Shown here: in pieces, positions 15,001 through 18,000 of the stretch | Layout of the letters: each line of letters begins with the position of its first letter | Numbering within the stretch: position 1 is the stretch's first letter | Assembly (NCBI GenBank): GCA_963801605.1 | Contig: CAWDFP010000006.1 | Location: 544,001-608,000 of the forward strand | DNA: 64,000 nt | DNA from: an uncultured candidate division Zixibacteria bacterium | Lineage (GTDB): Bacteria > Zixibacteria > MSB-5A5 > UBA10806 | Direction: 5' to 3' | Position numbers: made by a program

Positions 15001-18000
15001 TAGATAGCCCGTGATGGGTCGATTGCCCGAAGGTGGCCGTGGTACCGGTAAGAGAGCTAAATTCCCCTATGGGTATCTCGTTTTTATTGCTTGTCCCCGC
15101 CGCAACTCAGAGCGACAATACCGACTATCGTGACTATCGATAACTAAGATGGATTTTTTCATTTTTTGCCTATCCTGCCAAGCGTTTTTTGTGTTTGAAG
15201 ATATGCCCAAATCACCCATGTTGTCAAGGTTCGTCTCTCTATACCGGTATAATAAATTGACTCCTTTGCCATATCGTTTTTTTTGTGGACAAGCGCTGAT
15301 ATGGACCTTAAATTCCCGAAACGGCAGATTAAACAGTAATCAGTCTTAATAAGGAGCTGAGATAAATGAATACCAAACTGCTCTTTCTTCAAACCCGGCC
15401 GAACTTTCTATTGCTTTCGCCGATTCTGGTTTTTCTGGGTATGGCGATCTCATTAGACGGCACAAAATTCGACATGCCCGCATTCATACTGTCCGTCGTC
15501 GGGCTGACGCTTCTGCATGCCAGCGTAGATTGCCTCAACAACTACAGCGATTATAAAACCGGAATCGATTTTAAGGTCACCCGCACCCCATTCTCCGGAG
15601 GCTCCGGCCTTCCGGCCGCAGACAAAGAAACAGTCAGGGCAACCTTTTGGCTCGGCCTGATGACTTTCTTTCTCGCCGTGCCGATAGGAATCTATTTTAT
15701 AATAACGCGCGGCCTGGTTCTGCTTCCAATCTTCATAGTAGGCGGAGCATTCGTACTCTGGTATACAACCCATTTCGCAAAAATTGGCTGGGGCTCTGCT
15801 GAGATCGTGGCAGGCTTGGGTTTGGGAACACTTCCTGTTCTTGGCACTTATTTGATAATGGCCGGCAAGTTCAGCTGGATAGCCCTGTACGCCTCGGTGC
15901 CATCGGGATTTCTGGTTTTCAATCTCCTCCATCTCAACGAATTCCCCGACGCCGACGCTGACCGCACCGGCGGCCGCAAAACAATTCCAATTCAGTTCGG
16001 GCACAAGACTGCCGGGATCGTTTATTCGACGTTGATCATCTTAACATATCTCTGGATCATCGTAGGCGTTATTTTCCGTCTCATGCCTGCCTGGACACTT
16101 CTAGCTCTTCTAACTTTGCCAATTGGTTTCAAGGCTATTAAAGGCTCGCTCTCGTTTAAATCGTTTCCGGAACTCATCCCGTCTCAGGGAGCCAATATTA
16201 TTACGGTTCTTTCGATTCAATTCCTGATGGGCGTGGGGTATCTGATCGCGTATTTTACAAAGTGACTGGAAAACGCTTCAATAACGACTATGGAATCGGA
16301 ACTGCACAATAAGGCTCTCGGGCTATCATATTTCACTGTAGTATATAATATTTTCGAGGGGCTGGCGTCGGTGATTTTCGGAGCCGCGGCGGGAAGTTTC
16401 GCATTAATTGGTTTTGGGCTTGATAGTTTTATCGAATCTTTTTCAGGCGGGGTGATGATCTGGAGATTTGGGCGGCGCGGCAAAATCTCGCACGAAGAAG
16501 AGGAGCGAATAGAGCAGCGCGCCATAAAATTGGTGGCTTTTGCCTTTTATATTTTAGGGGCTTATGTACTGTTTGAATCGCTGAAAAATCTTTACCTAAG
16601 AGAACATCCAGAACACAGTCTGGCCGGAATAATTATCGCGATAGTATCGTTGATTGTCATGCCGGCACTTTTCTTTGCCAAGCGCAGGACGGGAAAGGCA
16701 ATTAAAAGTAAAAGCCTTCTGGCTGACTCCAAACAGACCCTGGGATGTATGATGCTTTCCGCGGTGTTGTTGATCGGTCTGGGCCTAAATTATCTTTGGG
16801 GATTTTGGTGGGCAGACCCGCTGGCCAGCGCGGTTATTGCGATTCTACTCTTGAGGGAAGGTTATAAAACCTACCGCGAACGCGAATTGTGCGAGTGCTG
16901 ATTTAATCAATATAGATATAAGAATAGCCGGCAATTTTATTTAGGAAGCCGAGGACGGTTACCACCCGATTAAATATATGAATTATACCGTCAGATTCGG
17001 GAGCTGATGGCACATTACATTCATTTCCTAAAATAAAAAAGGTGCGGTCACAATAAATTGCAACACGCACCTTAATACTTTAATTCTTTGAGTTCTACTT
17101 CACTCGTCTCGGAGAGCGATTTTCCCACTCCACGATAATCGGGCTGGCTACGAAAACCGAACTGTAAGTACCAATTACGATTCCAATCGTCAGCGCCAGA
17201 GCGAAATCGAAAAGCACTTCGCCGCCGAAAACCAGAATCGAAAGAACCGCCAGCTGGGTAGTAACCGAGGTGATAACAGTTCTCGAAAGCACCTCGTTGA
17301 TTGATATATTAACCGTCGTCATAAAATCGGAGCGTTTGCGGAATTGCTTCAAATTTTCCCGGATACGGTCGAATACCACAACGGTATCGGTCAGCGAATA
17401 ACCGGCGATCGTCAGGAGCGCGGTGATTAGAAGCAAGCTAATTTCGCGGTGTAGAATAAAATATATTCCCAGCATCGCTAAAACGTCATGGAAAGTTGCA
17501 ATTGTTGCCGCCACACCGAATCGGAAATCAAACCGGACCCAGATATAAACCAGGATTCCCAGGAATGCGAATATCACCGCCCAGGTCGCATCTTTGGCCA
17601 ATTGCTTTCCGACTTTGCCGCTGATATTATTGGTGGAATCAAGCTTGAAAGGGTTATCTTTAAAATGCTGGTTGATAGCGTCCTTAAGAAGAGTGGCCAG
17701 CTTATCGCCCTCGGCAGCGACCATGTTTACTATGGGCTTTCCCTGCTCGGTAAAGGTTGTTTCGGCGATAGCGTTTTCAATGCGTCCCTGGACCCTGATG
17801 ATGAAGGCGTTTTGTTGGCTGCCTCCGGTGACCGCCTGAATGACTGGCCTTACCATAGCCGACCTCATCGAGGGCTGAGCGTACCTGTTGGGCCGTAACC
17901 GGTTTTTCGAAATTGCCGATAATTTCGGCGCCACCGGTGAAATCCAGACCCAGATTCGCCTTTCCCATGAGTATCAACGCAAAGGAGACTATCCCCAAAA

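What a model noticed while it worked through the whole genome (the two positions that open the first line are those of the whole stretch)
15366..16265. Quinone-dependent respiratory chain without any menaquinone ring pathway (MenA/MenG tail genes only)
The genome has complex I, succinate dehydrogenase, alternative complex III, a Rieske/b complex and NrfD complexes, but the whole order lacks both known menaquinone ring pathways and nearly always chorismate synthase, keeping only a MenA-like prenyltransferase and MenG. It should depend on scavenged naphthoate, or use an unknown ring pathway.
Evidence so far: Of 24 order genomes: MenB over cut-off 0, MqnA/D family 0, MqnE 0, chorismate synthase 2; controls rang in each search. 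MenA-like g00804 in 17 of 24, best family MenA E 1e-34; g02523 passes the MenG/UbiE family and lies beside a polyprenyl synthase.
(Added by a program. Inside this text positions count along the whole contig: contig position 544,001 is position 1 of the stretch shown here. "Call 12" and the like, gene names such as g00115 and contig names such as C1 are that model's own, and its searches are not shown. The text may have been shortened before it was handed on; [...] marks where a part breaks off. The agent that wrote the report below was given it as the finding of a first reader that could run no searches.)

Follow-up and report, generated by a model that had tools for sequence, protein, structure and literature searches.

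The report
Vitamin K2 ring scavenging in Zixibacteria
A large part of the uncultured sediment phylum Zixibacteria carries a quinone-using respiratory chain and the two last genes for vitamin K2 (menaquinone) but no known genes for building its ring, so these bacteria likely finish a ring taken from neighbouring microbes, which points to a growth factor worth testing in culture.

Summary
Confirmed, and wider than reported. Window 15366-16265 is an intact MenA-clade prenyltransferase of a Zixibacteria genome. That genome encodes complex I, Sdh, ACIII with an aa3-type oxidase, Rieske/b and MenG, but no Men, futalosine, ubiquinone or chorismate route.

In a draw of 151 phylum genomes, 94 have the Men route, 7 have futalosine genes and 50 (11 families) have neither. 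In 62 ring-less genomes (all 24 of the order plus 38 others), MenD and MqnC pass cut-off in 0, NuoD in 62; MenG is found in 59 and a MenA-clade gene in 60 (order 22 of 24, not 17).

Three distinct orphan MenA clades replace one another, even within genera. No ring-type gene travels with them, and G000 also lacks His, Arg, Trp, branched-chain and pABA synthesis genes.

Best reading (0.70): salvage of DHNA or a similar naphthoquinone, a mechanism known from Porphyromonas and proposed for lactobacilli. An unknown chorismate-independent ring route is not excluded (0.13); Gloeobacter is the precedent. This scan noted MenA-only salvage before on other DNA. No enzyme activity or quinone was measured.

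The parts
15366..16265 (+). Orphan MenA-clade (clade A) membrane prenyltransferase, 299 aa, intact NxxxD...D and NxxxDxxxD motifs
   Evidence: differences from the same-genus orthologue (G162) fall 69/36/161 on codon positions 1/2/3
8725..10077 (-). Pyridine nucleotide-disulphide oxidoreductase read as a type II NADH dehydrogenase, a likely further user of the quinone pool; not physically linked to the menA-like gene
   Evidence: searches give only general flavoprotein families; the NDH-2 label is recalled from its motifs and was not tested

Best explanation
These Zixibacteria keep MenA- and MenG-type genes and a quinone-using respiratory chain but no known ring pathway, and they likely take up a ready-made naphthoquinone ring (DHNA or a close relative) from neighbours, which the window's enzyme would prenylate and MenG would methylate to menaquinone. 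Shown: presence of the tail genes and respiratory complexes; absence of Men, futalosine and ubiquinone ring genes in the genomes searched. Inferred: the substrate, its uptake, a side chain from the long-chain polyprenyl synthase, and menaquinone as the carrier between complex I/Sdh and ACIII, Rieske/b, NrfD complexes and a qNor-like enzyme.
For: (1) 62 ring-less genomes: MenD over cut-off 0, MqnC over cut-off 0, UbiD 1 (a chimeric piece), NuoD over cut-off 62, MenG found 59 (54 over cut-off), MenA clade 60; controls rang, MenD 7 of 7 and MqnC 3 of 3. (2) P0001 lies on the MenA side of a UbiA-superfamily tree (99/90) against UbiA, MqnP, CyoE, DGGGPS and DPPR; UBIAD1 is the best solved relative by profile (E 5e-44) and by fold (TM 0.68). 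(3) Clades B and C pass the TIGR00751 menA cut-off (121-132 bits against 102.15), and clade C stands in for clade A: of 7 order genomes without A, 5 have C; of 17 with A, 1 has C. The swap occurs within genera g1 and g3 (Fisher p 0.003, overstated because kin are not independent). (4) In family f2 the gene lies divergent from, or within about 5-9 kb of, a complex I operon in G028, G155, G063 and G151. (5) No ring-type neighbour recurs across families in 45 menA loci or 31 menG loci, whereas ring-bearing relatives cluster ring and tail genes. (6) AroC is in 7 of 50 ring-less against 100 of 101 ring-bearing genomes. G000 also lacks hisG/D/A/F/I, ilvC/D, argB/C, trp and pabB while keeping folP, the profile of a scavenger. 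(7) Precedent: Porphyromonas pasteri keeps only the two tail genes and grows on DHNA or MK-4 (PMC9704088).
Against: P0001 itself is under every MenA cut-off (52.6 bits against 102.15 for TIGR00751). G119 (95% complete, 10 contigs) and G152 (89%) have MenG and NuoD but no MenA-clade gene. No transporter was identified. Axenic Gloeobacter makes MK-4 while lacking the genes upstream of DHNA and the futalosine genes (PMC6189191 passages), so this gene pattern does not always mean salvage. Three of 5 ring-less genomes from other families lack a haem-copper oxidase, so the full aerobic chain is not general. All genomes are uncultured assemblies; no quinone was measured.
Confidence: 0.7

Rival explanations
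1. An undescribed, chorismate-independent pathway builds the naphthoquinone ring de novo, and MenA and MenG finish it.
For: Gloeobacter and glaucophytes make vitamin K with no known ring genes (PMC6189191; PMC13386864 discussion). The ring-less state spans both sides of the deepest resolved splits of an RpoB tree, a long time to depend on neighbours. 17 of 315 proteins shared by G000 and G037 had no Pfam family in the part scanned. A divergent orphan AroA-like gene is kept in 4 of 6 ring-less genomes checked.
Against: No conserved enzyme neighbour of menA or menG. The named part of the shared core holds housekeeping and catabolic families only, with no cluster that looks ring-forming. No HppD over cut-off in 5 of 5. 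No symerythrin match for 3 ferritin-like proteins tested, and none of the ferritin-like groups is both shared by all four ring-less genomes searched and missing from the Men-bearing one. No radical-SAM/peptide cassette beside any UbiA-family gene of 6 order genomes. The AroA-like gene is missing from G037 and G089.
Confidence: 0.13
2. The enzymes act on a different scavenged head group or re-tail imported vitamin K, as UBIAD1 does with menadione, so the carrier is not made from DHNA and may not be standard menaquinone.
For: Clade A is a long, well-supported branch (100/100) apart from operon MenA and fails MenA cut-offs. UBIAD1, which prenylates menadione (abstract listing), is the best solved match.
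Against: MenG is kept in 59 of 62 genomes, which fits an unmethylated ring such as DHNA rather than menadione. Clades B and C pass the menA cut-off and replace clade A. No bacterial MenA appeared among the solved-structure hits, so the UBIAD1 match is partly by default.
Confidence: 0.11
3. The MenA- and MenG-like genes do another job (for example ether-lipid synthesis), and the chain runs on whole imported quinone or bypasses quinone.
For: G000 has a DGGGPS-like gene and an archaeal-type GGPP synthase next to menG; a PcrB-family gene is shared with G037.
Against: The DGGGPS-like protein is a separate gene outside the MenA clade. MenG is single-copy and over cut-off. menA is linked to nuo in family f2. 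NuoD keeps the His/His/Tyr quinone-site motif (residue roles recalled).
Confidence: 0.04
4. Artefact: ring genes were lost from incomplete, frameshifted assemblies.
For: G000 is 86.9% complete and full of frameshifts. Three Men-family genomes lacked MenB through assembly gaps.
Against: The absence holds in 62 genomes, including single-contig ones at 90-99% completeness (G037, G045, G085, G089, G158), for unlinked markers (men, mqn, aro). The same searches found the genes in the controls.
Confidence: 0.02

Closest known systems
menA+menG-only menaquinone salvage (Porphyromonas pasteri KLE1280, PMC9704088; proposed for Lactobacillus in Ravcheev and Thiele 2016, PMC4746308)
   Same: Only the prenylation and methylation genes are kept; ring genes are missing; a soluble precursor (DHNA) is the expected input.
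   Different: The cases I read are host- or food-associated genera. Here it is 11 families of a free-living uncultured phylum with complex I, and in this order ACIII, Rieske/b and an aa3 oxidase; chorismate synthase is mostly gone too; three unrelated orphan MenA clades serve.
MenA, 1,4-dihydroxy-2-naphthoate polyprenyltransferase (TIGR00751, PRK06080 models)
   Same: Best family match, MenA side of the tree, same Asp-rich motifs and helical membrane fold.
   Different: 20-24% identity to E. coli and operon-type Zixibacterial MenA, below all cut-offs, never in a men operon.
UBIAD1 (PDB 8DJK chain B)
   Same: Best solved match by profile and by fold; a tail-adding enzyme in organisms that do not build the ring (the latter recalled).
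   Different: 20% identity; acts on menadione with a C20 tail, whereas these genomes keep MenG and a likely long-chain synthase.
Gloeobacter / glaucophyte vitamin K made without known ring genes (PMC6189191, PMC13386864)
   Same: Tail genes without Men or futalosine ring genes.
   Different: There the quinone was measured in axenic culture. Here nothing was measured, AroC is mostly absent, and the organisms look like multi-auxotrophs.

Membership tests
MenA (TIGR00751 / PRK06080) | Score above a curated MenA cut-off | tested here: not met
   P0001 52.6 against 102.15 and 119.9 against 277; clade B and C proteins that replace it do pass TIGR00751
MenA (TIGR00751 / PRK06080) | Groups with MenA, not with UbiA, MqnP, CyoE, DGGGPS or DPPR synthase | tested here: met
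   99/90 split in a 46-row tree; the outgroup branches are long
MenA (TIGR00751 / PRK06080) | Mg/diphosphate motifs NxxxD...D and NxxxDxxxD | tested here: met
   N58, D62, D68, N191, D195, D199 invariant or nearly so in 30 aligned rows including E. coli MenA
MenA (TIGR00751 / PRK06080) | Converts DHNA to demethylmenaquinone | not testable with these tools
   needs complementation or assay
MenG/UbiE (TIGR01934) | Score above cut-off, single copy | tested here: met
   167.2 against 158.35; 54 of 62 ring-less genomes over cut-off, 59 found; under the MpqE cut-off
Classical Men pathway | MenF, MenD, MenB (with MenH, C, E, I) | tested here: not met
   G000; MenD 0 of 62; MenB 0 of the 50 ring-less genomes in the phylum draw
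Futalosine pathway | MqnA, MqnC, MqnD, MqnE (with MqnL, M, P) | tested here: not met
   MqnA/D 0 of 50; MqnC 0 of 62 over cut-off; UbiD/MqnL only as a chimeric half gene in G000
Ubiquinone / plastoquinone-type pathways | UbiC, UbiA, UbiD, UbiX, or HppD for homogentisate | tested here: not met
   UbiC, UbiA, UbiX no match in G000, a UbiB-like kinase is present; HppD 0 of 5 over cut-off
menA+menG-only salvage (Porphyromonas type) | Tail genes present, ring genes absent, quinone-using enzymes present | tested here: met
menA+menG-only salvage (Porphyromonas type) | Growth or menaquinone content depends on added DHNA or MK-4 | not testable with these tools
   no culture data
Symerythrin-MenA cassette (lead from earlier notes of this scan) | Symerythrin-like di-iron gene beside menA | tested here: inconclusive
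   The ferritin-like gene near clade C menA and two G000 ferritin-like proteins gave no symerythrin hit in the PDB; no symerythrin query was available for a direct genome search

The most novel reading that the evidence does not exclude
A third of Zixibacteria build the menaquinone ring by a third, chorismate-independent pathway whose genes are scattered and unrecognised, possibly the route missing in Gloeobacter, and the 62 ring-less against 101 ring-bearing genomes of one phylum are a ready set for finding it.
Probability: 0.13. Interest if true: 0.88.

Novelty: new member of a known kind. Interest (0 to 1): 0.5.

Why it matters
A 2026 survey of 26,264 genomes found many lineages without any known quinone pathway and left open whether they ferment or make unknown quinones (PMC13386864). 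These Zixibacteria keep complex I and the tail genes, so they supply a third answer, salvage, at the scale of 11 families of free-living sediment bacteria. It gives a cheap test: add DHNA or MK-4, with amino acids and pABA, to enrichments of a phylum that to my recollection has no isolate. It also gives three orphan MenA clades that can be assayed in E. coli now. If salvage fails, the same genome set is a good place to look for the unknown ring pathway.

Tried and rejected
Half mqnL/ubiD gene at G000 C6:4080-4860 as a sign of a futalosine remnant: rejected. GC falls from about 0.52 to 0.35 at the join; UbiD is in 0 of the other 61 ring-less genomes; contigs of 4 of 4 public runs laid stop matching at base 4855, and in three the listed loose ends go on into one shared other sequence. 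It is most likely a foreign piece at the contig end.

MenB-, MenC-, MenE- and MenH-like hits in G000: read as crotonase, enolase-superfamily, acyl-CoA ligase and hydrolase paralogues in unrelated contexts.

Homogentisate route: no HppD over cut-off in 5 of 5.

Symerythrin and peptide/radical-SAM cassettes from earlier notes: not found beside UbiA-family genes.

Idea that G152 lacks menA because its contig ends beside nuo: not supported, other genes lie upstream there. G119 also lacks the second NuoD and cytochrome b, so a gap is possible but unshown.

One origin for all orphan MenA: rejected, p-AU 7e-5.

B. subtilis-type SdhC model: no match in G000; its Sdh has two small membrane subunits.

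Shared-core screen: covers 63% of G037 (1.34 of 2.12 Mb) and 315 of 559 shared proteins, long ones only over their first 330 residues, so it cannot exclude a scattered pathway.

Plasmid search, Atlas, cluster look-up and sequence look-up of earlier notes added only generic MenA names or nothing. Literature searches gave nothing relevant.

Full report
The locus. Window 15366-16265 (+) is one intact 299-aa ORF, P0001. The window is G000:C6:544001-608000 of a 3.06-Mb assembly, 86.9% complete, with many frameshifts. The two closest titled relatives are Zixibacteria. P0001 matches MenA models best (E 1.2e-34) but under all cut-offs. It is one of five UbiA-family genes in G000; the others are a haem O synthase, a DPPR synthase, a DGGGPS-like protein and one in the uppS-cdsA operon. 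Its Asp-rich motifs are intact. The AlphaFold model (pLDDT 90.5) matches UBIAD1 best (TM 0.68). Differences from the same-genus orthologue fall mostly on third codon positions (69/36/161).

Respiratory chain of G000. Complex I is complete on C2. Sdh lies at C6:1628721-1631945. An ACIII-type cluster sits directly before an aa3-type oxidase; a Rieske/cytochrome b pair, a second NrfD complex and a 754-aa haem-copper protein read as qNor (label recalled) are present. The same kind of chain was described for the Zixibacterium RBG-1; the word menaquinone does not occur in that paper's main text (PMC3903129, passages).

Ring genes in G000. tblastn with E. coli proteins and with men, mqn and aro clusters of other Zixibacteria found no MenF, MenD, MenI, MqnA, MqnC, MqnD, MqnE, UbiX, UbiC, AroB, AroC, AroE, AroK, type II dehydroquinase or Trp enzymes, and no UbiA or MqnP orthologue. 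Hits to MenB, C, E and H are 24-35% paralogues in unrelated contexts. One half ubiD/mqnL gene at the start of C6 is most likely a chimeric join. MenG passes its cut-off. Two trans-prenyl synthases are present: the one before menG has Trp five residues before the first Asp-rich motif, the other has Ala; by the recalled chain-length rule they are short- and long-chain.

Range. In an even draw of 151 phylum genomes, MenB passes cut-off in 91 and MqnA/D matches in 7. Of the 53 with neither, 3 have MenD and belong to Men families, which leaves 50 in 11 families. I then searched 72 genomes: all 24 of the order, the 38 other ring-less genomes and 10 ring-bearing controls. Among the 62 ring-less genomes, MenD passes cut-off in 0 (controls 7 of 7) and MqnC in 0 (controls 3 of 3). 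NuoD passes in 62, MenG is found in 59 (54 over cut-off), and a MenA-clade gene in 60. MenB and MqnA/D were searched in only 50 of these 62. AroC is in 2 of 24 order genomes and in 7 of 50 ring-less against 100 of 101 ring-bearing genomes. Haem-copper oxidases were found in 4 of 5 order genomes and 2 of 5 from other ring-less families.

History. On a quick RpoB tree of 28 Zixibacteria with two distant outgroups (G000 left out, its gene is frameshifted), ring-less families fall on both sides of the deepest resolved splits. Three of them nest among ring-bearing families, and at least 7 changes of state are needed; gain and loss cannot be told apart. The orphan MenA proteins form at least three clades, and one origin is rejected. 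Clade A holds P0001, clade B families f11 and f16-f18 with part of f12, and clade C is sister to operon MenA and E. coli MenA. In the order, 16 genomes have only A, 5 only C, 1 both and 2 none. Swaps occur inside genera. The B and C members tested pass the menA cut-off, which is the best indirect evidence that clade A does MenA's job.

Salvage or unknown pathway. No enzyme neighbour recurs across families around menA (45 loci, some overlapping) or menG (31 loci). The one telling link is to a complex I operon in four f2 genomes. G000 lacks His, Arg, Trp, branched-chain and pABA synthesis genes but keeps folP, another tail without its ring. A screen of proteins shared by G000 and 63% of the single-contig genome G037 gave 559 shared, 315 scanned, housekeeping and catabolic families only, and 17 without a family. 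Leads from earlier notes of this scan, symerythrin-MenA and peptide/radical-SAM cassettes, were not found here, though no direct symerythrin query could be run. Against salvage stand the two genomes without menA, the lack of a named transporter, and Gloeobacter.

What is in print. Ravcheev and Thiele propose DHNA use by menAG-only gut microbes (PMC4746308, passages). P. pasteri keeps the two tail genes and grows on DHNA or MK-4, not on MK-5 to MK-8 or menadione (PMC9704088, abstract and section 24). Cenci et al. report Gloeobacter without genes upstream of DHNA and glaucophytes with MenA and MenG only (PMC6189191, passages). Chobert et al. 2026 note many lineages without a quinone pathway and suggest an alternative menaquinone pathway (PMC13386864, parts 1-4 of 9). 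Zixibacteria are not named in its main text or 8 readable supplements, but its genome table S1 was too large to read and may list them. PMC11565984 and PMC13452876 were seen as passages; UBIAD1 papers as search listings. Searches for a report of this pattern in Zixibacteria listed none, within a library that lacks most subscription papers.

Verdict. The mechanism is most likely a known one, salvage of a naphthoquinone ring, newly mapped onto about a third of a free-living uncultured phylum, with a direct cultivation test. Interest 0.5; a third ring pathway keeps a probability of about 0.13.

Noticed in passing
G000:C6:1046104-1047482: Orphan AroA-like gene (frameshifted in this assembly) with a changed N-terminal motif and an insertion of about 40 residues. 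A second EPSP-family gene of 462-467 aa is also in G085, G028 and G045, which lack AroC, but not in G037 or G089.
   Followed up: partly
G000:C6:1-4855: The contig end with half an mqnL gene fused in frame to a SIR2-like domain (label recalled) looks like a foreign piece joined at base 4855.
   Followed up: yes
G000:C6:1395789-1396625 and C7:396857-397927: DGGGP synthase-like gene and archaeal-type GGPP synthase, plus a PcrB-family gene shared with G037: genes of archaeal-type ether lipid synthesis.
   Followed up: no
L184:7222-8097 (G037): G037's second MenA passes the cyanobacterial/plant MenA cut-off TIGR02235, 235 against 225 bits.
   Followed up: no
L183:4496-5401 (G004): A futalosine-pathway genome also carries a long-branch MenA-clade gene, possibly salvage beside de novo synthesis.
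   Followed up: partly
L006 (G000:C8:68410-69210); L158, L160, L163, L168: A UbiA-family gene of unclear job sits after uppS and cdsA in five order genomes.
   Followed up: no
G000:C6:365448-366884: FadL/TodX-type outer-membrane channel shared with G037, a possible entry route for hydrophobic rings.
   Followed up: no
window 12149-14690, 17095-19623, 22335-23516: Branched-chain amino acid ABC transporter, secD/secF and alaS are broken by frameshifts, as are many genes of this assembly; likely sequencing errors.
   Followed up: no
most of the 72 genomes: Two NuoD copies, hence probably two complex I operons, in most genomes; G000 and G119 show one.
   Followed up: partly
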